From UHGV virus genome UHGV-2003109: a DNA stretch of 40,932 nt; one strand, written 5' to 3'. Origin of the DNA: a virus. The position numbers and the translations under genes are program-made. The notes beneath the pieces were generated by a model, which was given only the letters and a program-made list of their open reading frames with translations, was not told the origin of the DNA and did no database searches. Positions 27,692-40,932 of this stretch are shown in pieces (position 1 is the first letter of the stretch; every line of letters begins with the position of its first letter).

Positions 27692-28444
27692 TTATCTCGT
27701 CACCTTCCTCAATTGCGCTTCCGCGTATGCTTCTTCCTGCCAGCACTTTGTTACCAGTTTATCAATGACGTCCGCATACCCTTTATACCACTGATAATCG
27801 GTCAGGTCTGGTACCAGCTTCTGGACATGACGTCGTGCCAGCGTGGTCGGTAAACGACTAAACCGGTTTCCATTACAACGCCCACAAATCTTATATACCG
27901 GTACGCCATGAAACCGGGTTCTTTTTTCATCCAGAACAATCCCTTTACCCTTACACCCTCTGCACGCTGTGCTGACTTCGCCCTTACCATGGCAATGCTG
28001 ACATAGTTCCTTCACCCATTCTTCCTTGATTACAGATTCCCCGCATCTGTAGTGTTTCACCACTTCGCGCAATACATTATAAAATCCCGTACCTGAACAA
28101 TGCTCACAGCGAGCCTTACTTGCCGCAGACCTGGAGTAATCAGCAAAGGCAAAATTCACGAGGTAAGGAATAATCTGTAACCGGATTTCTTCACTCAATT
28201 TGTTCAATGTCGGGTTATCCAGTGCCATCGCGTAATTTAGCAGGCCTTCAATCGCAAACTGAGAGTCCTGAACACCAACTTTTGCCAGAAATAAGGCCAA
28301 CCCAAGTGGTGCTTTCGACTGCACCATCCCCTGCGCTGCCATTACATCCGTAATTGTTAAACAACCGGTGCCTGTCGCTGGAGCGTCATCGCTCAATTTT
28401 GGAGATTTTGGGGAGTAATATTTTGGTAAGGCTTCAAGGTTCAT
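27692..28444 (-). CDS. Late antitermination protein Q (phage 82/21 Q family)
   Basis: 250 aa with multiple CxxC zinc-binding motifs (CEHCSGTG, CQHCHGKG, CRGCKGKG, CGRCNG); QuuQ/QuuD-like. Confidence 0.85.
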   Translation of the reverse strand: MNLEALPKYYSPKSPKLSDDAPATGTGCLTITDVMAAQGMVQSKAPLGLALFLAKVGVQDSQFAIEGLLNYAMALDNPTLNKLSEEIRLQIIPYLVNFAFADYSRSAASKARCEHCSGTGFYNVLREVVKHYRCGESVIKEEWVKELCQHCHGKGEVSTACRGCKGKGIVLDEKRTRFHGVPVYKICGRCNGNRFSRLPTTLARRHVQKLVPDLTDYQWYKGYADVIDKLVTKCWQEEAYAEAQLRKVTR

Positions 28445-30321: not shown

Positions 30322-30477
30322 TTACTCCTCAGGTTCGTAAGCTGTGAAGACAGCGACCTCCGTCTGCCCGGTTCGGATTCGTACCTCGCAGAGGTCTTTC
30401 CTCGTTACCAGTGCCGTCACTATGACGGTTAAACAGATGACGATCAGGGCGATTAACATCGCCTTTTGCTGCTTCAT
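30322..30477 (-). CDS. hokD: Hok-family type I toxin (HokD/RelF-identical peptide)
   Basis: MKQQKAMLIALIVICLTVIVTALVTRKDLCEVRIRTGQTEVAVFTAYEPEE; AAGGAGA RBS; track ORF is an in-frame N-terminal extension. Confidence 0.9.
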   Translation of the reverse strand: MKQQKAMLIALIVICLTVIVTALVTRKDLCEVRIRTGQTEVAVFTAYEPEE

Positions 30478-30659
30478 AGCCTGCTTCTCCTTGCCTTTCG
30501 GCACGTAAGAGGCTAACCTACATGTGTCTAGCATGAAATTGGCCTCAGATTAATGTTAAGCGTCTTGCAGGACGCGTAATGTTAACTGGGGCTTTTCTCT
30601 ATCTGCCGTTGGTGTTCATGCCCGAGGCAGATAGCCTCAAGCACCCGCAGCAATTTTAC

Positions 30660-30937: not shown

Positions 30938-31969
30938 CTACCAATTGATGAAGTCAGTGATGTTATCCAACCTGGTTACAGTAACTTCCCGTCCTAACAA
31001 ATATTGCCAGTATGCCTCACGGTCATTTTGTTCACCTGCACCGCTCCACTCAATTACTCTTAAATGCTTAGAGGTTAGGTAAGGTCGAATAAGCAGGTTA
31101 AGGTGTTCATCGAGGCCAGAATAACCAAACAGTATTATTTCTTCTGATTCAAATAATGCAAACTGCAAATAATCCCAGTACGTAGAAAGAACATTAGATG
31201 CTGCTATAACTGACGGTTTCCTTTTTATATGCGTTAACACTATATGTTCGCTAGGCTCATCCCTGTCAACCGTAAGTTGAGAACGTGAAAGTTTTAAGAC
31301 GGTCTCACCCTGATTAACAAATAGTGGTGAGCCATGCAAATGCAAATAATAACCAAACCTACGATTATATTTCCGTTCGAGCGCTTCGGCGGAAAATCCG
31401 TGGCCTAACATCCCATCAACCAGATACCCATCATACCCGCTGAATATATCATTATCTATGAATGAGTTGTATAATAATTTGTCATAGTTTAATGTCGCAA
31501 TATGAGTGCGTGTATTTTTTACAAATTCCACTAGCGCATTTTCGAATCTTTGCGGCAACCCTTCACCGTAATTATGCAAACTAGTTGCAACTTTGTGGAT
31601 ATAAGTGGCGGTGATTTCGGGGAAGTTTAGTCCATCGTCAGTAAGCCAATGCTCGTTTCCTTCTCCAATTTGCGCAAGAGCCTTACAATATGTGATAGCT
31701 TGGTGAAGGGTATCCAACTCATGTTCCCCTGCCGGTGGACCTTGCCGCTGAAGACAGCGTTCGATAAGTTGCTTATGGACATCGTTTAAGAAATTGGATC
31801 GATGCCAAATTTCTGCCAACGCCCTGTCTAAGGAAAAATGAGCAGGATCTAAAGCCATACCAAGACCGTTGCCGAATATTATTAATTTTCGTGCCATATA
31901 GGAGGACTCATGTTGGAATAATCTTGAGTAGCGTAACGCGATACGCCGCAGTTTGGAAGTAATATACAT
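30938..31969 (-). CDS. SIR2-like (SIR2_2 / DHS-like NAD-binding) stand-alone protein; candidate defence NADase
   Basis: Motifs LIIFGNGLGMALD (Gly-rich N-terminus), ATLNYDKLL (conserved Asn) and YLHLHGS (conserved His), then ILFGYSGLDEH; AT-rich gene; start at 31969 or 31897. Confidence 0.65.
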   Translation of the reverse strand: MYITSKLRRIALRYSRLFQHESSYMARKLIIFGNGLGMALDPAHFSLDRALAEIWHRSNFLNDVHKQLIERCLQRQGPPAGEHELDTLHQAITYCKALAQIGEGNEHWLTDDGLNFPEITATYIHKVATSLHNYGEGLPQRFENALVEFVKNTRTHIATLNYDKLLYNSFIDNDIFSGYDGYLVDGMLGHGFSAEALERKYNRRFGYYLHLHGSPLFVNQGETVLKLSRSQLTVDRDEPSEHIVLTHIKRKPSVIAASNVLSTYWDYLQFALFESEEIILFGYSGLDEHLNLLIRPYLTSKHLRVIEWSGAGEQNDREAYWQYLLGREVTVTRLDNITDFINW

Positions 31970-32313
31970 TCCGTTTGATTACACTCGATATTACAGACTT
32001 GCATGCAAAGAAATCCAAGCTGTTAGGTAAATAGAGACCGCAGAGGAAAGTGATATAGTCTATAAAAACCAACGAATAGCGGCATGTCTTCTGCGACCTC
32101 CATTTACCCAAATAGCACTTATCTAGTAAAATTCAATGATGTATTGCATAGTATTTCGTATGAATTGATATAGATAAGAATCAGTCTTAATTCATTAGCA
32201 AATATTGAAACTCAAAATGTCTGTTTTTGATACAAAGCTGACAACCAGACCAGTTCTAGCCATGTGCCACCAAAATGTCAATTCATATCTGAAGTAATGC
32301 TCTTTAATTTCGT

Positions 32314-32736
32314 TCACCGTGGTAATGTTCGAATATTTCCCTTATAAAATGCCAAAATCCGCTGCATAACTTCGCTCTTCCGGCACTCGCGACAGATTAT
32401 GTTCATACGCCTGTCGTAGCGACGTATTTCTCCGTCAGGTAATGACCAGATAAGGTCCGGATCAACCACAGCAGGTTTCTTCACCTTTGCCCTCGAGAGT
32501 TTTTTGCGGGCGTTTTGCCAGTCCTTACGCGCCTGTTCAGAGGGGAATAACCCGTAGCCGGAGTTGTATACATCGCCACTGGCAACCAGCTCTCTGGCAA
32601 GAACGCTCATCAGATATCTTGTCGCACCTGTTTTAGCTTCCAGTTGCCGTAGCGTCTCACGACCGCTCTGGCGCACGAGTTCCACCACCTGCCCTTTAAT
32701 TTTTTCCCGCTCTTCTTGTGTAAAAACTTTTGCCAC
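32314..32736 (-). CDS. Hypothetical basic protein downstream of the replication gene (possible DNA-binding protein)
   Basis: Non-ATG start with AAGGGGG RBS; Lys/Arg-rich with CRECRK motif; occupies the lambda P position but unlike P. Confidence 0.5.
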   Translation of the reverse strand: MAKVFTQEEREKIKGQVVELVRQSGRETLRQLEAKTGATRYLMSVLARELVASGDVYNSGYGLFPSEQARKDWQNARKKLSRAKVKKPAVVDPDLIWSLPDGEIRRYDRRMNIICRECRKSEVMQRILAFYKGNIRTLPR

Positions 32737-32776
32737 AAGTCCCCCTTAAAATTACCTCATGACCTGAAATCAACAC

Positions 32777-33796
32777 TTATCCCCTGAAACCAGGCGGAAT
32801 TTCTGTATCCGGTTCAGAAATATGATTCACACAACGCTGTACAGACGAACGCCCCAGACGGATGACCAGTTCATCCCATTTTTCACGAAGCTTTGACGGG
32901 CTCATGATGTTTTTTACCCAGAATGGATCTCGCTGTACCCGACCAAACATTTCGCAAATTTGTCTGTGGCTTCTGCCATCCAGCATCCGCATTGTGCGCA
33001 CGTCATTGGCCCAGGCAGTCCAGTTAGGCTCTTTTGGTCGCATGATCTCGCCATCATCACTGGCTGCCTGTTCGTAGAGACCCACGATCCGCCCCCAGAT
33101 CCACTGCGCACACGCCAAATCCTCCCTGCTACCCCACTGGCGTTTTTTCGCACTAAACACAACCGCGTCGGAGTTCCGGGTTAAAAAATCCTGTTCAGTC
33201 GTCTGCGGGTCCGGTTGCGAAGCTTCCGGACGAAAAGTGTTTTTATTCTCTGTAGTAATCTCTGTTGTATTCTCTGTAAGATCATCAGGCCATTTTGACC
33301 CGATGACATTGGGTCGTTTTGAACCAATGGAGCGTTTCATTTTGACCTCTTCCATCGTGTCATTTTGACCTGATGGAGCGGCGCATTTTGAACCGATGGA
33401 TTCGCTCAATTTGCCACCATCTAAAAGCTCGCTCCCATAGTTGATCGTGTAGAAATTGGTCATATCGCGCTTTGATTTATTGAGCTTTTCACAACGCAAA
33501 AGCCCCAGCGTTTTCAGACTTGCAAACGCGCGCTTTAACGTTGACTCTGACCAGAATGGGAACTGTTCCAGCCATTGTTCCGTTGTGTTGTAAATCCAGC
33601 GAACACCATCACATTCCATGCCGGAATTGGTATCTCTCAACCAGTAATGCAACTGCTGCAACACAATGGCTTCATTTAAGCCAATCTTCATCGCAAGCTG
33701 TGTGTTTATAACCAGTGGGCGTTCAGCAAAAAGAAGGCTCATAATTCCATCCAGCTTTTTGTTGGTATTGCTGTCGATACGCAAGTTTGAAAGCAA
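32777..33796 (-). CDS. Replication initiation / replisome organiser protein (lambda O-like role)
   Basis: N-terminal region (…RPLVINTQLAMKIGLNEAIVLQQLHYWL…) typical of phage replisome organisers; iterons embedded in the coding sequence. Confidence 0.8.
   Translation of the reverse strand: MLSNLRIDSNTNKKLDGIMSLLFAERPLVINTQLAMKIGLNEAIVLQQLHYWLRDTNSGMECDGVRWIYNTTEQWLEQFPFWSESTLKRAFASLKTLGLLRCEKLNKSKRDMTNFYTINYGSELLDGGKLSESIGSKCAAPSGQNDTMEEVKMKRSIGSKRPNVIGSKWPDDLTENTTEITTENKNTFRPEASQPDPQTTEQDFLTRNSDAVVFSAKKRQWGSREDLACAQWIWGRIVGLYEQAASDDGEIMRPKEPNWTAWANDVRTMRMLDGRSHRQICEMFGRVQRDPFWVKNIMSPSKLREKWDELVIRLGRSSVQRCVNHISEPDTEIPPGFRG
33291..33420. repeat. Origin iterons: five to six ~22-bp direct repeats (core CATTTTGACC / CATTTTGAACC) inside the O-like gene
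   Basis: Direct reading: cattttgacccgatg, cgttttgaaccaatgg, cattttgacctc, cattttgacctgatgg, cattttgaaccgatgg, caatttgccacc. Confidence 0.7.
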
Positions 33797-34244
33797 TTGC
33801 TTTTTCTATAAGTTCGTCAGTTTCACGATCCACTACGGCAGGATCAGCAAAAAGCAGTCCGGACTCCACCACATCGCCATATTCTTTGTTTAACCCGGCG
33901 ATCATGTACGTGATGCTTTTTCCGTCACTAATTTCACGATACAACCTGAAATCATTAATCCGGATAGCCTCCATAATTGCAGGCACTAGCGCCGTGAACT
34001 TTTCACGCTTATCCCTGGTGTCGATAGCCTTCCAGCGTTCGAATATCTTCACTCGATTAACGCCAAGCGCTCGCTGATCAACCGCGCCACCTTCATCTGT
34101 GACACGCTGAACATCGATGTTCGGGCGCTCTTTCAAAGCCCAGAATGCTTCAGTGATTAATATCGTCGCCTGCTCCTGTGTCATTCCTGGTCGACATATC
34201 CAGGCATCCAGAGCCTCACGAGCCTGTTCAGGAGTGATTTTCAT
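33723..34244 (-). CDS. YdaT-like protein (cII position)
   Basis: 173 aa; motifs ...KIFERWKAIDTRDKREKFTALVPAIMEAI... recalled as YdaT-family; lies between the cro-like gene and the replication gene. Confidence 0.55.
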   Translation of the reverse strand: MKITPEQAREALDAWICRPGMTQEQATILITEAFWALKERPNIDVQRVTDEGGAVDQRALGVNRVKIFERWKAIDTRDKREKFTALVPAIMEAIRINDFRLYREISDGKSITYMIAGLNKEYGDVVESGLLFADPAVVDRETDELIEKAIAFKLAYRQQYQQKAGWNYEPSFC

Positions 34245-34455
34245 TGTTCAACCGCCCCGCCCGCTTCGTCTTACGATATTCGTCATAAACCTTGGGATCA
34301 TACTGAAGCTCGCCGCCAGATGCCTCCTGTAGACGCATCGCGCGACCTTCAGGAACCAGCTCTTGCCATTGAGAAACAGCAGATGGGTCAACGCCAGCAG
34401 CTTTCGCTACTTTGGCTTTCGTACCGTAAAAATTAATTACGTCTGATTTAAACAT
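34228..34455 (-). CDS. dicC: Cro-like regulator DicC (YdaS family)
   Basis: MFKSDVINFYGTKAKVAKAAGV...VPEGRAMRLQEASGGELQYDPKVYDEY; divergent from dicA. Confidence 0.8.
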   Translation of the reverse strand: MFKSDVINFYGTKAKVAKAAGVDPSAVSQWQELVPEGRAMRLQEASGGELQYDPKVYDEYRKTKRAGRLNNENHS

Positions 34456-34468
34456 CGCACCTCCAATA

Positions 34469-34482
34469 TTGAGTTTTCTCAA
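34469..34482. promoter_or_regulatory. Palindromic operator TTGAGTTTTCTCAA in the dicA-dicC divergent promoter region
   Basis: Perfect 14-bp palindrome in the 77-bp intergenic region between the dicC and dicA starts. Confidence 0.5.
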
Positions 34483-34532
34483 TGCTAATCACTCAAGGAA
34501 TCTCAAGTCAAGGGTTATTAAGATATCTAAAT

Positions 34533-34940
34533 ATGAACGAGAAAACTTTAGGTCAACGCATTAGAGAAAGACGTAAGCAGGTAGGCTTAAGTCAAAACGG
34601 TTTAAGCAAAGCTGCTGGCGTATCTGGCTCATCAATTTCATTATGGGAAAGTGACCATACAGCCCCGCGCGGGCAAAATTTGCATCGCCTCGCCGAGGTA
34701 TTGCAATGTTCACCAACCTGGATACTGTTTGGCGACGAGGACAAAACACCAGCTCCCCCTGTTTCACTCGATAGTGCCTTAGACTTATCGGAAGATGAGT
34801 TAGAGATGCTGCGTTTGTATCGCGCACTTCCTAAATCAGAGCAACAAGCACAACTCAGCGAACTCCGCGCCCGCGTTGAGAATTTTAATCGCCTGTTCAC
34901 CGAGCTATTAGAGGCTCGCAAACGCAACAAGCATCAATAA
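34533..34940 (+). CDS. dicA: XRE-family HTH repressor DicA (CI-like immunity repressor)
   Basis: …LGQRIRERRKQVGLSQNGLSKAAGVSGSSISLWESDHTAPRGQNLHRLAEVLQCSPTWILFGDEDK… closely resembles E. coli DicA. Confidence 0.9.
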   Translation: MNEKTLGQRIRERRKQVGLSQNGLSKAAGVSGSSISLWESDHTAPRGQNLHRLAEVLQCSPTWILFGDEDKTPAPPVSLDSALDLSEDELEMLRLYRALPKSEQQAQLSELRARVENFNRLFTELLEARKRNKHQ

Positions 34941-35004
34941 TCATCCCTTCACAAAATTTTAAAGCCTTACATTTCAATGTATTGGCTTTATCTTGCGCCA
35001 ATAC

Positions 35005-35060
35005 TTGAGTTTTCTCATCAAAAAACCTTGACGAAAAATAATGAGAAAACTAAATTATCT
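35005..35060 (+). promoter_or_regulatory. Candidate promoter of the ydfA-dicF-dicB operon flanked by operator half-sites
   Basis: TTGAGTTTTCTCA (35005-35018), -35 TTGACG (35028-35033), TGAGAAAACTAA (35042-35053) overlapping a TAAATT -10. Confidence 0.45.
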
Positions 35061-35132
35061 CCATCAAGACACCGCACGGTGTTCTCAGCAAACAGTTCCG
35101 CTACCCCAGCGTTAAGGGGAAATAAGGTCAGC

Positions 35133-35288
35133 ATGGATACTATCGATCTTGGCAACAACGAATCTCTGGTGTACGGCGTGTTTCCAAACCAGGACGGCAC
35201 GTTCACCGCAATGACGTATACCAAAAGCAAAACGTTTAAAACCGAAAATGGTGCCCGTCGCTGGCTGGAAAGAAACTCAGGTGAGTGA
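35133..35288 (+). CDS. ydfA: YdfA-like small protein (DUF1391)
   Basis: MDTIDLGNNESLVYGVFPNQDGTFTAMTYTKSKTFKTENGARRWLERNSGE. Confidence 0.8.
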   Translation: MDTIDLGNNESLVYGVFPNQDGTFTAMTYTKSKTFKTENGARRWLERNSGE

Positions 35289-35289
35289 T

Positions 35290-35865
35290 ATGGATTTCGA
35301 CACAATCATGGAAAAGGCTTACGAAGAATACTTCGAAGGCCTTGCCGAAGGCGAAGAAGCTCTCAGCTTCAGTGAGTTTAAACAGGCACTCAGAATAAGA
35401 ATGTGCTCTCACAATGACGCGGAGCACAAATATGAGAAGCAAAATCAGACCGCAGAAAATTTTGTTCTGGAACCCGGAGAAACGCTTTTCAAAATTCCCG
35501 TTACGTGCCCCATTTGCGGTTTTACATCAGAAGAACTTGACGACTCCTGTAACAATCAGGAAACAACCAAGTATGTCGAAGATGATACCGAGTGCGCACG
35601 AAGAACGATTATATCCACGAGTCCAAACTCCAGGACCAATAAATCTCACTTTGAGAGGGTGATTAATCCACTCCCCCAAACCAATAAAAAAGATGCCGGA
35701 GGACAAAAAACCCAATGGAACAACGGGATATCTGTCAAAAAAAGACGTTCCATTAAAGACAAACAACGCAGCGCCAACAACTGTAAGCGCTTTATACCAG
35801 TAATCAATTTTCATGTTCTTAAGCGGATTTATTGGTGGTTGCGACATTGCTTAATGAATCCTTAA
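35290..35865 (+). CDS. YdfB-like N-terminus fused to a longer hypothetical protein
   Basis: MDFDTIMEKAYEEYFEGLAEGEEALSFSEFKQALRIRMCSHN... continues to 192 aa; AGGTGAG RBS. Confidence 0.5.
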   Translation: MDFDTIMEKAYEEYFEGLAEGEEALSFSEFKQALRIRMCSHNDAEHKYEKQNQTAENFVLEPGETLFKIPVTCPICGFTSEELDDSCNNQETTKYVEDDTECARRTIISTSPNSRTNKSHFERVINPLPQTNKKDAGGQKTQWNNGISVKKRRSIKDKQRSANNCKRFIPVINFHVLKRIYWWLRHCLMNP

Positions 35866-36821: not shown

Positions 36822-39293
36822 ATGAGTAAAGTCTTTATTTGCGCCGCCATTCCGGACGAACAGGCAATAAAGGAAGAAGGTGCAATCGCTGTAGCCACTG
36901 CCATTGAAGCCGGTGATGAACGTCGCGCCCGCGCAAAATTTCACTGGCAATTCCTGGAACATTATCCGGTTGCTCAGGACTGCGCTTATAAATTTCTTGT
37001 TTGCGAGGATAAACCCGGTATACCCCGCCCTGCCCTCGATTCCTGGGATGCTGAATATATGCAGGAAAACCGCTGGGATGAGGAGTCTGCTTCCTTTGTC
37101 CCGGTTGAGACTGAATCAGATCCGATGAACGTCACTTTTGACAAGCTGGCCCCTGAAGTACAGAACGCTGTCATGGTTAAGTTCGACACATGTGAAAACA
37201 TCACCGTTGATATGGTGATTAGCGCGCAGGAATTGTTGCAGGAAGACATGGCAACATTCGACGGACATATCGTTGAAGCGTTGATGAAAATGCCAGAAGT
37301 TAACGCCATGTATCCGGAGCTTAAGCTGCATGCCATCGGGTGGGTTAAACATAAATGTAATCCTGGAGCTAAATGGCCCGAAATTCAGGCAGAGATGCGC
37401 ATCTGGAAAAAACGTCGCGAAAATGAACGCAAGGAAACCGGAAAATACACGTCTGTTGTTGATCTCGCCCGCGCCAGAGCCAATCAACAGCACACTGAAA
37501 ATTCAACAGGAAAAATCAACCCGGTCATTGCTGCCACTCATCGCGAATACAAGCAGACATGGAAAACACTGGATGACGAACTGGCCTACGCTCTCTGGCC
37601 TGGTGATGTGGATGCCGGAAACATTGACGGCAGCATCCATCGCTGGGCAAAAAATGAAGTTATCGACAACGACCGCGAAGACTGGAAGCGTATCTCGGCA
37701 TCAATGCGCAAACAGCCTGATGCCCTTCGCTACGACCGCCAGACTATTTTTGGCCTTGTCCGTGAACGTCCGATCGACATTCACAAAGACCCTGTGGCAC
37801 TGAACAAATACATTACTAAATACCTGACTACAAAGGGCGTGTTTGAAGATGAAGGAACAAATCAGAGCGCAACTGATACTCTCTCGTCGCCAGTACCAGA
37901 AACTGATGCAGTGGAAACGGCAATTCCGGGCAACGAAAAAACTGAATGCAAAGTGGAAGTCGAACCATCTGTAGAGCGTGAGGGGCCGTTCTACTTCCTC
38001 TTTACCGACAAGGATGGCGAAAAATACGGTCGCGCAAACAAACTTTCTGGTCTGGATAAGGCGCTGGCTGCCGGGGCTACTGAAATCACGAAAGAAGAAT
38101 ATTTCGCCCGCAAAAACGGTACATACTCAGGTTCACAACAAAATACTGGTGCATCTGACACGACCGCACAACCAGAGCCGGTAAAAATTACCGCTGACGA
38201 AGTAAACAAAATTATGCAGGCAGCCAATATCAGCCAGCCTGACGCCAATCAGTTGCTTGCTGTATCACGTGGTGAATTTGTTGCAGGGATTAGCGATCCG
38301 AATGATCCGAAATGGGTGAAGGGGATTGAAACCCGCGATTCAGTGAACCAGAACCAGCAAGAAACGGAACAGAACGACCAGAAAGCGGAACAAAACAGCC
38401 CAAATGCGTTACAAAACGAGCCAGAAACGAAACAACCTGAGCCAGTAGCGCAACAGGAAGCGGAAAAAATCTGCACCGCCTGCGGTCAGACCGGCGGCGG
38501 CAACTGCCCTGAATGTGGTGCGGTGATGGGCGACGCAACATACCAGGAAACATTCGATGACAAGAACCAGGTTGAAGTTCAGGAAGACGATTCGGAGAAA
38601 ATGGAAGGCGCTGAACATCCACACAAGGAGAATGCTGGCAGCGCTCAGGACCACGCCAGCGATAGTGAAACTGGCGAGACGGCAGATCCCTTAATTACGG
38701 TGAACAGTCATCACGTTATCACATCCACCAGCAGGACGTGTGACCATCTAATGATCGACCTTGAAACCATGGGAAAAAATCCTGATGCCCCGATTATCTC
38801 AATAGGCGCAATATTTTTCGATCCACAAACCGGAGATATGGGACCGGAATTTAGCAAGACCATAGATCTGAATACTGCTGGCGGAGTCATTGATCGTGAC
38901 GTCATTAAATGGTGGCTGAAGCAATCACGTGAAGCGCAGTCTGCCATTATGACCGATGAAATCCCGTTAGATGATGCACTGTTACAATTGCGGGAATTTA
39001 TCGACGAAAACTCCGGTGAATTTTTTGTTCAGGTCTGGGGAAATGGAGCCAACTTCGACAACACGATTTTGCGCCGTTCATACGAACGGCAGGGGATCCC
39101 CTGCCCGTGGCGTTACTACAACGATCGCGATGTACGCACAATCGTTGAGCTGGGGAAAGCCATAGACTTCGATGCCAGAACGGCTATTCCATTCGAAGGT
39201 GAGCGGCATAATGCACTTGATGACGCCCGTTACCAGGCAAAATACGTTTCAGTTATCTGGCAAAAACTGATCCCGAGTCAGGCTGATTCTTAA
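36822..39293 (+). CDS. Large recombination-associated exonuclease (YdfE-like) with internal zinc ribbon and C-terminal DEDDh 3'-5' exonuclease domain
   Basis: C-terminal motifs DLETMG, NGANFD, HNALDDARY; CTACGQ...CPECG zinc ribbon; lambda exo/RecE position; uninterrupted 823-aa ORF. Confidence 0.8.
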   Translation: MSKVFICAAIPDEQAIKEEGAIAVATAIEAGDERRARAKFHWQFLEHYPVAQDCAYKFLVCEDKPGIPRPALDSWDAEYMQENRWDEESASFVPVETESDPMNVTFDKLAPEVQNAVMVKFDTCENITVDMVISAQELLQEDMATFDGHIVEALMKMPEVNAMYPELKLHAIGWVKHKCNPGAKWPEIQAEMRIWKKRRENERKETGKYTSVVDLARARANQQHTENSTGKINPVIAATHREYKQTWKTLDDELAYALWPGDVDAGNIDGSIHRWAKNEVIDNDREDWKRISASMRKQPDALRYDRQTIFGLVRERPIDIHKDPVALNKYITKYLTTKGVFEDEGTNQSATDTLSSPVPETDAVETAIPGNEKTECKVEVEPSVEREGPFYFLFTDKDGEKYGRANKLSGLDKALAAGATEITKEEYFARKNGTYSGSQQNTGASDTTAQPEPVKITADEVNKIMQAANISQPDANQLLAVSRGEFVAGISDPNDPKWVKGIETRDSVNQNQQETEQNDQKAEQNSPNALQNEPETKQPEPVAQQEAEKICTACGQTGGGNCPECGAVMGDATYQETFDDKNQVEVQEDDSEKMEGAEHPHKENAGSAQDHASDSETGETADPLITVNSHHVITSTSRTCDHLMIDLETMGKNPDAPIISIGAIFFDPQTGDMGPEFSKTIDLNTAGGVIDRDVIKWWLKQSREAQSAIMTDEIPLDDALLQLREFIDENSGEFFVQVWGNGANFDNTILRRSYERQGIPCPWRYYNDRDVRTIVELGKAIDFDARTAIPFEGERHNALDDARYQAKYVSVIWQKLIPSQADS

Positions 39294-39617: not shown

Positions 39618-39651
39618 CTAAAAGCCACACTAACTAATGAGAGAGGTTGAA

Positions 39652-40932
39652 ATGAAATATCCGACAGGCGTGGAAAACCATGGAGGGAAATTACGTATCT
39701 GGTTTGTTTATAAAGGCGTAAGAGTCAGGGAAAATCTGGGGGTTCCTGACACAGCAAAAAACAGGCGCGTTGCAGGTGAACTACGCGCCTCTGTTTGTTA
39801 CGCAATAAAAACTGGTGTTTTCGACTATGCAAAACAGTTTCCCTCCTCACGCAATCTGGAAAAATTTGGTGAGGCCCGACAAGATTTAACCATAAAAGAA
39901 CTGGCTGAAAAATTTCTGGCACTGAAAGAAACTGAAGTCGCCAAAACATCACTCAACACATACCGTGCCGTCATCAAAAATATCCTGAGCATAATCGGTG
40001 AAAAAAATCTTGCCTCATCGATTAATAAAGAAAAATTACTGGAGGTTCGTAAAGAGTTACTGACTGGATACCAGATCCCCAAAAGTAACTATATTGTTAC
40101 ACAACCAGGGAGATCGGCTGTAACTGTAAATAATTACATGACAAATCTTAACGCCGTGTTCCAGTTTGGTGTTGATAACGGTTACCTAGCAGATAATCCG
40201 TTTAAGGGGATCTCGCCATTAAAGGAATCAAGAACCATTCCGGATCCTCTTTCGCGGGAAGAATTTATCCGTCTTATCGATGCGTGCAGAAATCAGCAAG
40301 CAAAAAATTTATGGTGTGTTTCTGTTTATACTGGCGTTCGCCCTGGTGAGCTGTGTGCACTTGGATGGGAGGACATAGATCTGAAAAATGGAACAATGAT
40401 GATCAGGAGAAATTTAGCAAAAGACCGTTTCACGGTACCAAAAACACAGGCGGGAACCAATCGGGTCATTCATCTTATTAAGCCAGCAATCGACGCTCTC
40501 CGGAGTCAGATGACATTAACGAGACTGAGCAAAGAGCATATCATTGATGTTCACCTCAGAGAGTATGGCAGAACAGAAAAACAAAAATGCACCTTTGTTT
40601 TTCAACCTGAAGTGTCAGCGAGAGTAAAAAATTATGGTGACCATTTTACCGTTGACTCAATAAGGCAGATGTGGGACGCAGCGATAAAACGTGCCGGACT
40701 CCGCCATCGAAAATCATATCAGTCGAGACATACTTATGCCTGCTGGTCGCTGACAGCTGGTGCTAACCCGGCATTTATAGCAAACCAGATGGGCCATGCA
40801 GATGCGCAAATGGTATTTCAGGTATACGGAAAATGGATGTCTGAAAACAATAATGCACAGGTAGCTTTGTTAAATACACAGTTAAGCGAGTTTGCCCCAA
40901 CCATGCCCCATAACGAAGCAATGAAAAATTAA
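39652..40932 (+). CDS. int: Tyrosine site-specific integrase
   Basis: C-terminal catalytic region with R...HxxR...Y signature (RHRKSYQSRHTYA...); GAGAGG RBS; stop at the window end. Confidence 0.9.
   Translation: MKYPTGVENHGGKLRIWFVYKGVRVRENLGVPDTAKNRRVAGELRASVCYAIKTGVFDYAKQFPSSRNLEKFGEARQDLTIKELAEKFLALKETEVAKTSLNTYRAVIKNILSIIGEKNLASSINKEKLLEVRKELLTGYQIPKSNYIVTQPGRSAVTVNNYMTNLNAVFQFGVDNGYLADNPFKGISPLKESRTIPDPLSREEFIRLIDACRNQQAKNLWCVSVYTGVRPGELCALGWEDIDLKNGTMMIRRNLAKDRFTVPKTQAGTNRVIHLIKPAIDALRSQMTLTRLSKEHIIDVHLREYGRTEKQKCTFVFQPEVSARVKNYGDHFTVDSIRQMWDAAIKRAGLRHRKSYQSRHTYACWSLTAGANPAFIANQMGHADAQMVFQVYGKWMSENNNAQVALLNTQLSEFAPTMPHNEAMKN

What the first reader, a model, noticed from the sequence alone, without database searches (positions are those of the whole stretch)
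33291..33420. Replication origin iterons inside the initiator gene
Five or six direct repeats with ~22-23 bp periodicity (core CATTTTGACC) lie within the coding sequence of the O-like gene, the same arrangement as lambda ori within O. I did not identify the expected adjacent AT-rich unwinding element with certainty.
Basis: seen in the sequence. Interest (0 to 1): 0.45.

Follow-up and report, generated by a model that had tools for sequence, protein, structure and literature searches.

The report
Phage replication origin inside initiator gene
The repeats are real DNA-level binding-site repeats that, with an adjacent easily melted stretch, most likely form the replication origin of an E. coli lambda-like prophage inside its own initiator gene, which is a textbook layout but in an uncharacterised and very widespread initiator family.

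Summary
Observation confirmed. Six 23-bp units (five clear, one degenerate) lie at 33283-33421 inside a minus-strand gene (32777-33742, 321 aa). The core GGTCAAAATG is read in all three frames, so the repeat is in the DNA, not the peptide.

It holds three tandem 12-mers (ACAGAGAWTACW) and is the least stable duplex within the 2.2 kb examined around it (32300-34500).

The protein has three parts:
- a winged-helix N-domain with no Pfam family;
- a predicted disordered linker encoded by the repeats;
- a C-domain homologous to lambda O (E=1e-26).

It ends in a tail matching the C-terminus of host DnaT. No P, DnaC or DnaB gene follows.

Relatives of the N-domain in Enterobacterales, Pseudomonas, Acinetobacter, Moraxella, Staphylococcus and Bacillus phages carry the same layout. 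Third-codon positions are frozen in the repeats but free in the N-domain. An unrelated N-domain fused to the same C-domain brings different repeats.

Interpretation supported: a lambda-type origin, new member of a known kind. No experiment was done. The conserved 12-mers and the DnaT-like tail are the only unusual points.

The parts
32777..33742 (-). Initiator gene (321 aa). An upstream in-frame TTG at 33796 would give 339 aa.
   Evidence: The ORF is listed. It matches PHROG 391 'replication initiation O-like' at E=1.8e-91. The ATG at 33742 matches the 321-aa CDS of phage HannyBb and the 321-aa cluster representatives. Sequence covering at least 80% of the gene occurs in 1780 of 5426 complete E. 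coli genomes, where the listed examples are annotated 'hypothetical protein'.
33422..33742 (-). Codes the N-terminal winged-helix domain (aa 1-107), the presumed iteron-binding domain.
33283..33421 (.). Iteron array: six 23-bp units (IT0 degenerate, IT1-IT5 clear), core GGTCAAAATG on the coding strand.
   Evidence: establish the array. It is conserved in position and period in homologous loci. Sixty per cent of third-codon positions are invariant in the cores, against 12% in the N-domain.
33237..33282 (.). AT-rich tract holding three tandem 12-mers (33266-33277 ACAGAGAATACA, 33254-33265 ACAGAGATTACT, 33242-33253 ACAGAGAATAAA, coding strand). Candidate DNA-unwinding element.
   Evidence: GC is 0.275-0.30. 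TRF finds period 12 with 2.7 copies. The 40-nt duplex energy is -44.3 kcal/mol against a mean of -54.8 (sd 3.6), the lowest in 32300-34500. The motif has 6 hits in the window against 0.9 expected, 3 of them here. The 12-mers recur after the iterons in phages of Proteobacteria and Firmicutes, always with ACAGAG codons.
33203..33232 (.). Short GC-rich palindromic segment right after the AT-rich tract, at the junction where N- and C-terminal modules are exchanged.
   Evidence: It forms a hairpin in the ssDNA fold. Identity to the type-B initiator gene L004 begins here. Related palindromes such as GGTTGCGNCGCAACC sit at the same place in other genera. Its function is not established.
32852..33175 (-). 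Codes the C-terminal helical domain (aa about 190-297), homologous to the lambda O C-terminal domain.
   Evidence: BLASTP against lambda O (NC_001416) gives E=1e-26. AF2 pLDDT is 64-84. The domain is shared at 87-97% DNA identity with genes that have a different N-domain.
32780..32863 (-). Codes the C-terminal tail (...RLGRSSVQRCVNHISEPDTEIPPGFRG) that matches the C-terminus of E. coli DnaT.
   Evidence: PDB chains 2ru8, 6aep and 9zbt and NCBIfam PRK02854 match only these residues. BLASTP against K-12 DnaT gives 17/32 identities, E=2e-8. The tail is predicted disordered.
34482..34511 (-). pR-like promoter candidate that would drive cro-like, cII/YdaT-like and initiator genes, so transcription passes through the origin.
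   Evidence: It is a consensus match only: TTGACT, 18 nt, TAGCAT. Gene order and families are given.
32314..32736 (-). DUF977 / Ren-like gene directly downstream. It occupies the place where lambda has P.
   Evidence: Pfam DUF977 matches at E=2.8e-29 and PHROG 142 at E=4.1e-46. No helicase or loader gene lies between here and Q at 27692-28444.

Best explanation
The array at 33283-33421, the AT-rich 12-mer tract at 33237-33282 and possibly the GC-rich palindrome next to it form the vegetative replication origin of this lambdoid prophage. The origin is embedded in the gene of its own initiator.

Proposed steps:
1. The initiator is made from the pR-like early operon (inferred from gene order).
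2. Its winged-helix N-domain binds the 23-bp iterons, probably as dimers on the palindromic units. Because the period is about two helical turns, the proteins line up on one face of the DNA and build an O-some-like complex (inferred by analogy; supported by co-inheritance of domain and repeats).
3. The strain is released in the adjacent 12-mer tract, the weakest duplex of the region, which opens. The strict cross-phylum conservation of the 12-mer sequence suggests that it is also read sequence-specifically, perhaps as single strand, by the initiator (inferred).
4. The lambda-O-type C-domain and the DnaT-like tail bring in the host DnaB helicase, most likely as the DnaB-DnaC complex, because the phage encodes no loader of its own (inferred; the weakest step).

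The peptide encoded by the origin is a disordered linker between the two domains. This is why the DNA can carry the signals freely.
For: **Shown directly**
- The phased repeats stand well above chance.
- The motif is read in three frames.
- The AT-rich tract is the least stable 40-mer of 2.2 kb.
- The origin-encoded residues 109-175 have pLDDT 23-39 and sit between two folded domains.

**Comparative evidence**
- An unbiased search for the most repeated 10-mer just downstream of N-domain homologues recovers related motifs at 22-24-bp spacing. The motifs are GGTCAAAATG in Citrobacter, Raoultella, Enterobacter and Trabulsiella; TCGAACAGGT in Morganella; TGCAAAATGC in Moraxella; and TTCAAAATGA in Bacillus. 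Phased repeats were also found in Staphylococcus phage 96, Pseudomonas, Erwinia and Acinetobacter phages.
- In ten enterobacterial sequences, invariant third-codon positions are 12% in the N-domain, 60% in iteron cores, 46% in spacers and 75% in the 12-mers.
- Thr-Glu inside the 12-mers is always ACAGAG, including in a 60% GC Pseudomonas phage. Elsewhere in the same genes other codons are used. One Hyphomicrobiales locus reads the 12-mer in another frame.
- E. coli genes with an unrelated HTH N-domain but the same C-domain carry different repeats (GACCCGTCA, 15-nt period) and no 12-mers. The junction falls right after the 12-mers.

**Module is in use**
- The module is 98% identical to that of the phage isolates HannyBb and mEp460_ev081.
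- 40-kb circular records are whole phage genomes in which this is the only gene annotated, or recognisable here, as a replication gene.

**Helicase step**
- The C-domain is homologous to lambda O and the tail to DnaT.
- There is no loader gene in the window.
- Of 119 viral genes ending IPPGFRG, 55 are followed by a DnaC/IstB-like gene, 48 by DUF977 and none by a P gene.
- Initiators followed by P genes end in a different tail.
Against: - There is no binding, melting or replication assay for any member of this N-domain family. I found no paper describing this origin; the motif strings occur in the held library only in unrelated papers.
- IT1 and IT3 lack the dyad and IT0 is degenerate here.
- The 12-mers are always (with one exception) read in the same frame as TE(I/N)T, so a protein-level role for that motif is not fully excluded.
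- Some family members lack clear 12-mers (Bacillus FJAT-27245, Peribacillus faecalis, two MAGs).
- What the DnaT tail binds is unknown. The 2026 preprimosome paper states that DnaB/DnaC recruitment is unresolved and favours the DnaT N-domain (PMC13377028).
- The tail/loader survey uses related, non-independent sequences.
Confidence: 0.85

Rival explanations
1. The repeats are initiator-binding sites used mainly for control (autoregulation of the gene by roadblock, copy-number handcuffing, or exclusion of related phages), and initiation takes place somewhere else.
For: Iterons in plasmids serve both initiation and control (established knowledge on iteron plasmids). The sites lie inside the transcribed gene, so binding could hinder its own transcription.
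Against: - An AT-rich, minimally stable tract adjoins them exactly as in origins.
- No other repeat array that could serve as an origin exists in the window.
- The layout is the same as in lambda and pSK41, where the in-gene repeats are the origin (PMC7466680, PMC5703833).
- Control and initiation roles are not exclusive.
Confidence: 0.07
2. The sequence is an origin by descent but is dead in this copy, as a relic in a defective prophage.
For: IT0 is degenerate here, whereas other genera keep a good sixth copy. Many E. coli prophages are defective (PMC2669165).
Against: - The module is 97.6-98.5% identical to that of the phage isolates HannyBb and mEp460_ev081 and of PhiR42_1, with the same iterons apart from one substitution in IT4.
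- The initiator ORF is intact.
- The window carries integrase, recombination, lysis, Q, terminase and tail genes in normal order.
Confidence: 0.05
3. The repeats bind some other protein (the YdaT/CII-like regulator, the DicA-like repressor or a host factor) and have nothing to do with the protein whose gene holds them.
For: No binding data exist for any protein.
Against: - The repeats travel with the N-domain into phages of Staphylococcus, Bacillus, Pseudomonas and Acinetobacter, whose neighbouring genes are different.
- They are replaced when the N-domain is replaced, although the YdaT-like and Cro-like neighbours stay.
- No DnaA box or IHF consensus lies in the array.
Confidence: 0.02
4. The periodicity only reflects a repeated peptide motif (IGSK...) in a low-complexity linker.
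For: IGSK occurs three times in the protein.
Against: - The period of 23 bp is not a multiple of three.
- The same DNA core is translated as GSKC, GQND and EVKM.
- Synonymous positions are conserved.
- The linker is predicted disordered.
Confidence: 0.01

Closest known systems
Bacteriophage lambda origin (ori-lambda) inside gene O, and the six-iteron origins of Stx phages 933W and P27
   Same: - The origin sits in the middle of the initiator gene.
- There are four to six iterons with internal dyad symmetry, spaced 20-24 bp, followed in the direction of transcription by an AT-rich tract (lambda coordinates, sequence; PMC7466680).
- The iteron centre is even alike: lambda ATCCCTCAAAACGAGGGA against CATCAGGTCAAAATGACACGATG here.
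[quoted passage not shown]
- The operon context is the same: repressor, cro-like gene, cII-like gene, initiator.
   Different: [quoted passage not shown]
- The AT-rich tract is built of three conserved 12-mers.
- There is no P gene. The protein ends in a DnaT-like tail instead of lambda's ...TDWIYGVDL.
RepA_N plasmid replicons of Firmicutes (pSK41 Rep)
   Same: - The initiator has three parts: a winged-helix N-domain that binds repeats lying centrally in its own gene, a central linker encoded by the origin and dispensable as protein, and a host-specific C-domain.
- Natural chimeras swap the N-domain together with the origin (PMC5703833).
- The weak Foldseek hits of the N-domain include the pSK41 Rep-DNA complex (5kbj, E=0.08).
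   Different: - There is no RepA_N Pfam match.
- This is a phage rather than a plasmid.
- The C-domain is lambda-O-like, not DnaD-like.
- pSK41 Rep contacts DnaG primase, whereas the partner here is unknown.
DopC of the DopC/DopE pair (domesticated lambda O/P genes; Brezellec et al. 2017, PMC5509034)
   Same: It is an O-related protein that carries the DnaT C-terminal motif instead of the usual lambda O C-terminus.
   Different: DopC has the lambda-type HTH N-domain, is chromosomal, is paired with a P-derived partner, and was reported to have no iterons. Here the N-domain is of another family, iterons are present and no partner gene exists.
Repeated 13-mers of the unwinding elements of oriC and of plasmid RK2 oriV; binding of lambda O to single-stranded AT-rich origin DNA
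   Same: A short tandem repeat sits in the AT-rich part next to the initiator sites, and its sequence, not just its composition, is conserved. Lambda O binds single-stranded DNA of its AT-rich tract (Learn et al. 1997, as cited in PMC7466680). The rest rests on my own knowledge of oriC and RK2.
   Different: The period here is 12 nt and the sequence (ACAGAGAWTACW) is different. It lies inside a coding region, and nothing is known about what reads it.
E. coli DnaT (primosomal protein I). Some phage records label this gene 'Primosomal protein I'.
   Same: The last 16 residues are nearly identical: VN.(I/V)SEPD..IPPGFRG.
   Different: Similarity is limited to the last 22-32 residues. The NCBIfam DnaT score is 16.8 bits against a cut-off of 201. 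The protein is not a DnaT.

Membership tests
Lambda-type origin (ori inside gene O) | [quoted passage not shown] | tested here: met
   The iterons correspond to gene nt 322-460. The folded domains are aa 10-105 and 180-297, with a disordered linker at 109-175.
Lambda-type origin (ori inside gene O) | Four or more iterons of about 19-23 bp with dyad symmetry, phased at 20-24 bp. | tested here: met
   There are six units at 23/24-bp spacing, three of them near-palindromic. They are far above the shuffle controls. Lambda spacing is 20, 24, 23.
Lambda-type origin (ori inside gene O) | An AT-rich tract of about 40 bp directly following the iterons in the direction of transcription. | tested here: met
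   The tract at 33237-33282 has GC 0.30 and contains the least stable 40-mer of 32300-34500.
Lambda-type origin (ori inside gene O) | Initiator N-domain of the lambda O family (Pfam Phage_rep_O). | tested here: not met
   No Pfam hit was found at E<=0.01 for the whole protein or E<=1 for 17 N-domains. BLASTP against lambda O aligns only the C-terminal half.
Lambda-type origin (ori inside gene O) | Initiator C-domain homologous to that of lambda O. | tested here: met
   BLASTP gives E=1e-26 and 34% identity over 148 aa.
Lambda-type origin (ori inside gene O) | A P-type helicase-recruiting gene immediately downstream. | tested here: not met
   The next gene is DUF977/Ren-like. There is no P, DnaC or DnaB family gene up to Q. 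Relatives with another tail do have P.
Lambda-type origin (ori inside gene O) | The initiator binds the iterons, and the fragment supports replication. | not testable with these tools
   This needs EMSA or footprinting and a mini-replicon test.
PHROG 391 'replication initiation O-like' | Full-length profile match. | tested here: met
   E=1.8e-91, covering residues 35-339 of the 339-aa reading against profile positions 11-298 of 298.
RepA_N replicons (pSK41 type) | RepA_N domain (Pfam PF06970) in the initiator. | tested here: not met
   There is no Pfam hit. The only link is a weak structural resemblance to 5kbj/4pql (E about 0.08).
RepA_N replicons (pSK41 type) | The origin repeats are central in the rep gene, and the encoded segment is a dispensable linker. 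| tested here: inconclusive
   The position and the predicted disorder agree. Dispensability of the peptide cannot be tested here.
DnaT (primosomal protein I) | Full-length homology to DnaT (NCBIfam PRK02854 cut-off 201 bits). | tested here: not met
   The score is 16.8 bits and only residues 318-339 match. BLASTP aligns the last 32 residues only.

The most novel reading that the evidence does not exclude
The module may be a complete one-gene replicon whose two unusual parts are portable signals.

1. The tandem 12-mers (ACAGAGAWTACW), conserved at synonymous sites from E. coli to Pseudomonas, Staphylococcus and Bacillus phages, would be a sequence-specific recognition element of the unwinding region. 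The initiator family would read it, perhaps as single strand, as a phage counterpart of the oriC or RK2 13-mers.
2. The ...IPPGFRG tail, shared with host DnaT and found on unrelated phage initiators, would be a docking peptide for DnaC-type loader/DnaB complexes. That would let the phage dispense with a loader gene. It would also predict what the conserved C-terminus of DnaT does in replication restart, a step that the 2026 preprimosome structure paper calls unknown.
Probability: 0.25. Interest if true: 0.7.

Novelty: new member of a known kind. Interest (0 to 1): 0.42.

Why it matters
- **Annotation.** Sequence covering most of this gene is present in about a third of complete E. coli genomes, and the listed RefSeq examples are annotated 'hypothetical protein'. 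Relatives of its N-domain occur in at least 139 phage records across phyla. Knowing that the gene is the initiator and that the origin lies inside it allows correct annotation, and gives a defined minimal replicon for these prophages.
- **Engineering.** The origin's position bears on phage engineering, because recoding this gene would destroy the origin.
- **Module exchange.** The comparative pattern is a clean natural example of DNA-binding domain and origin being exchanged as one unit.
- **Open question.** If the side observations hold, the 12-mers would be a rare case of an unwinding-element sequence conserved across phyla. The DnaT-like tail would give a testable handle on how DnaB-DnaC is recruited without DnaA or P.

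Tried and rejected
- **Pfam and NCBIfam on the initiator.** No family was found. The only NCBIfam hit is the DnaT tail, far below cut-off.
- **Sequence search of PDB.** Only the DnaT tail matches for the whole protein, and only insignificant PadR-type hits for the N-domain profile.
- **Fold searches.** Generic winged-helix matches were found for the N-domain. Nothing was found for the C-domain, so a DnaD-like or DnaT-CTD-like fold for the C-domain could not be shown.
- **Rfam.** No RNA family was found in 31500-35500. The strong ssDNA fold (z=-2.96) is explained by the palindromic iterons and was not taken as evidence for an RNA.
- **Host-factor sites.** No DnaA box, IHF or Fis consensus lies in the origin. 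One DnaA-box-like 9-mer at 32717 lies outside the gene and was not pursued.
- **Literature.** The motif strings and the peptide PPGFRG gave nothing relevant. No paper on this origin was found.
- **Whole-window 10-mer count.** It is not significant by itself, so it was replaced by phasing statistics.
- **Alignment error.** A first alignment of L002 was out of register and was corrected.
- **P-gene control.** The survey of P-linked initiators returned only near-identical lambda copies, so it is a weak control.
Full report
**What is there**

The window is a complete lambdoid prophage of E. coli, read in reverse. Integrase is at 39637-40932 and a large exonuclease at 36822-39293. A DicA-like repressor lies at 34482-34940 (+), a DicC/P22-Cro-like gene at 34228-34482 (-), and a YdaT/CII-like gene at 33723-34244 (-). 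Next comes the gene in question (32777-33742, -). It is followed by DUF977/Ren-like (32314-32736), a SIR2-like gene, a hok-like gene, DUF968/HNH and Q (27692-28444), and then by lysis and structural genes.

The replication region is 97.6-98.5% identical to phages HannyBb, mEp460_ev081 and PhiR42_1. Sequence covering at least 80% of the gene occurs in 1780 of 5426 complete E. coli genomes, where the listed examples are annotated 'hypothetical protein'.

**The observation**

On the coding strand there are six 23-bp units at 33283-33421 with spacings of 23, 23, 23, 23 and 24 bp. Five share the core G(G/T)TCAAAA(T/C)G and one is degenerate. Three are near-palindromes of the form CATYRGKTCAAAAYGNCNYRATG.

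- Self-similarity of the region peaks sharply at lag 23 (0.56 against about 0.24).
- Phased exact 7-mer matches number 25, against at most 4 in 300 dinucleotide shuffles.
- The period is not a multiple of three. The same DNA core is translated as GSKC, GQND and EVKM.

**The missing AT-rich element**

Directly downstream in the direction of transcription lies 33237-33282, with GC of 0.30. It contains three tandem 12-mers: ACAGAGAATACA, ACAGAGATTACT and ACAGAGAATAAA. Its 40-nt window is the least stable duplex in 32300-34500, at -44.3 kcal/mol against a mean of -54.8 with sd 3.6. It stays unpaired in a single-strand fold, while a short GC-rich palindrome follows it.

**The protein**

- **Model.** An AlphaFold model built on a shallow alignment (mean pLDDT 57.7) shows two folded parts. 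The first is aa 10-105, with a winged-helix-like order of helices and strands. The second is a helical domain at aa 180-297. They are joined by a disordered stretch at aa 109-175, which is exactly the part encoded by the iterons and 12-mers.
- **C-domain.** It is homologous to the C-terminal domain of lambda O (E=1e-26).
- **Tail.** The last roughly 28 residues match the C-terminus of E. coli DnaT: 17 of 32 identical, ending in the same IPPGFRG.

So 'O-like' is correct for the C-terminal half only, and 'Primosomal protein I', used in some phage records, is a mislabel.

**Comparative evidence**

I fetched loci encoding relatives of the N-domain from one genome per species and from phage records. 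For each, I asked which 9- or 10-mer is most repeated just after the domain.

- *Iterons.* The answer was a related motif at 22-24-bp spacing in each of the following:

  | Taxon or phage | Most repeated motif |
  |---|---|
  | Citrobacter, Raoultella, Enterobacter, Trabulsiella | GGTCAAAATG-type |
  | Morganella | TCGAACAGGT, six copies |
  | Moraxella | TGCAAAATGC, seven copies |
  | Bacillus | TTCAAAATGA |
  | Staphylococcus phage 96 | GGACAAAWTGGCCCGAC, three copies |
  | Erwinia phage PEp14 | GAGGGCAAAWTGCCC |
  | Acinetobacter phage Abp95 | AGTRATCAAAWTGA |

. The Pseudomonas phage's top phased 9-mer differs (CCACTCGAA at 23 and 46 bp), although GGCAA-type units are visible in its sequence.
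- *12-mers.* In most of these loci the iterons are followed by two to four 12-mers of the form ACAGAGAYTACW. The taxa include Pseudomonas (gene GC 0.60), Peribacillus, Geobacillus, Staphylococcus and Deferribacterales.
- *Synonymous sites.* In a gap-free alignment of ten enterobacterial sequences (73-92% identical), invariant third-codon positions are as follows:

  | Region | Invariant third positions |
  |---|---|
  | N-domain | 12% |
  | Iteron cores | 60% |
  | Iteron spacers | 46% |
  | 12-mer array | 75% |

  For comparison, first and second positions in the N-domain are 72% and 82% invariant.
- *Codon choice.* Thr-Glu within the 12-mers is always ACAGAG, whereas elsewhere in the same genes it is mostly encoded otherwise. 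One Hyphomicrobiales locus reads the 12-mer in another frame.
- *Module swap.* E. coli genes L004 and L005 carry an unrelated HTH N-domain joined to the same C-domain and tail as the window gene. They carry different repeats (GACCCGTCA, 15-nt period) and no 12-mers, and similarity to the window begins right after the 12-mers.

The N-domain, iterons and 12-mers are therefore inherited as one unit, and the C-domains and tails as another. At least four kinds of C-terminal region are joined to this N-module.

**How it most likely works**

The anatomy matches lambda step for step. The initiator binds phased iterons through the N-domain and forms a higher-order complex. The neighbouring weak duplex then opens, and the C-terminal part recruits the helicase. 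Steps one and two are inferred from anatomy, co-inheritance and the lambda and pSK41 precedents (PMC7466680, PMC5703833).

The nucleotide-level conservation of the 12-mers across phyla argues that they are recognised as sequence, not only as AT-rich DNA. The initiator family is the only component common to all these phages. Lambda O is known to bind single-stranded DNA of its AT-rich tract (PMC7466680).

The third step is the least certain. The window and most close relatives have no loader gene: about 70 of 80 viral loci with the identical N-domain have DUF977 next. A 43.7-kb circular record is a whole phage genome in which no helicase or loader gene is annotated. Tail type goes with loader type:

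- Family members ending in ...HWNSPEAWENTL are followed by a lambda-P family gene (Pfam E about 1e-57).
- All 78 initiators found upstream of lambda-type P genes end in ...TDWIYGV(D/E)L.
- Of 119 viral genes ending in IPPGFRG, 55 are followed by a DnaC/IstB-like ATPase, 48 by DUF977 and none by P.

I therefore propose that the DnaT-like tail engages DnaC-type loader/DnaB complexes, of host or phage origin. These samples are not phylogenetically independent, and no binding partner of the DnaT tail is reported in the papers I could read (PMC13377028, PMC4129139).

**Comparison with known systems**

The closest system is ori-lambda. Position in the gene, iteron number, spacing, dyad symmetry, even the TCAAAAYG centre, the AT-rich tract, the homologous C-domain and the operon context are all shared. 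The differences are an unrelated N-domain, the 12-mer structure of the AT-rich tract, the absence of P and the DnaT-like tail.

In architecture it is equally close to RepA_N plasmids such as pSK41, but the defining Pfam domain is absent. DopC (PMC5509034) is a precedent for an O-related protein with a DnaT C-terminal motif.

**Novelty and verdict**

The finding as stated is correct and is an ordinary kind of thing: a phage origin inside its initiator gene. What is new is the membership. This is an unannotated, very common initiator family whose origin has, as far as my searches show, not been described.

Two side observations deserve follow-up: the cross-phylum 12-mer and the tail/loader relation. 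I rate it a new member of a known kind, with interest 0.42. Confidence that this is the origin is 0.85. Confidence in the proposed helicase-recruitment route is roughly 0.4.

Noticed in passing
window 32780-32863 (-); loci L120-L239 and L240-L319: The initiator ends with the C-terminal tail of host DnaT (...SEPDTEIPPGFRG). Among 119 viral-contig genes ending IPPGFRG, the next gene is DnaC/IstB-like in 55, DUF977 in 48 and lambda-P-like in none. Initiators followed by P genes end in a different aromatic/acidic tail. This suggests the tail decides which loader is used.
   Followed up: partly
window 33242-33277; L012-L019, L021, L025, L029, L112-L115: The tandem 12-mers ACAGAGAYTACW after the iterons are conserved at the nucleotide level, synonymous sites included, in phages and prophages of Enterobacterales, Pseudomonas, Staphylococcus, Geobacillus, Peribacillus and Deferribacterales. 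They are better conserved than the iterons themselves.
   Followed up: partly
window 33203-33232: A GC-rich short palindrome directly after the AT-rich tract marks the point where similarity to initiators with a different N-domain begins. Other genera have a different palindrome (GGTTGCGNCGCAACC, GGTTCCCGTGGAACC) at the same place. It may be part of the origin or a recombination joint.
   Followed up: partly
window 30938-31969 (-): A 343-aa SIR2_2-domain protein gives weak matches to anti-phage SIR2 models (PADLOC Aga_SIR2, PDC-S21). It is inserted between the DUF977 gene and the hok-like gene. Phage HannyBb has other genes at that place. It is possibly a defence cargo gene.
   Followed up: partly
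window 30322-30534 (-): A MokW/hok-like host-killing peptide gene (PHROG 251) lies in the early right operon.
   Followed up: no
window 38345-38435: A 21-nt tandem repeat (4.3 copies, 68% matches) lies inside the 823-aa exonuclease gene. The period is a multiple of three, so it is probably a peptide repeat.
   Followed up: no
two of loci L032-L111 (not identified individually): In two viral contigs the initiator ORF stops after 169 aa, with foreign sequence (...TENTTVNRPGNPGD) starting inside the 12-mer array. This suggests an insertion or rearrangement at the AT-rich element.
   Followed up: no
L029, L030, L031 (Deferribacterales and Proteobacteria MAGs): Proteins of about 785 aa carry two tandem copies of the same N-domain. 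These are followed by iteron-like repeats read in changing frames (SVQND/SVQSD...) and a long Cys-rich C-terminal region. This is a much larger relative of the initiator.
   Followed up: no
plasmid records NZ_CP081704.1, NZ_CP081794.1, NZ_CP095244.1, NZ_CP074176.1: Four 40-44-kb circular 'plasmid' records carry this N-domain and origin. The one examined (NZ_CP081704.1) is a complete temperate phage genome with integrase and no annotated helicase or loader gene. The other three, not examined, are presumably the same kind of excised or replicating phage circle.
   Followed up: partly
window 33723-33796: The end of the YdaT/CII-like gene overlaps the start of the initiator gene. Some database entries (448 aa, P0001) fuse the two reading frames.
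   Followed up: no
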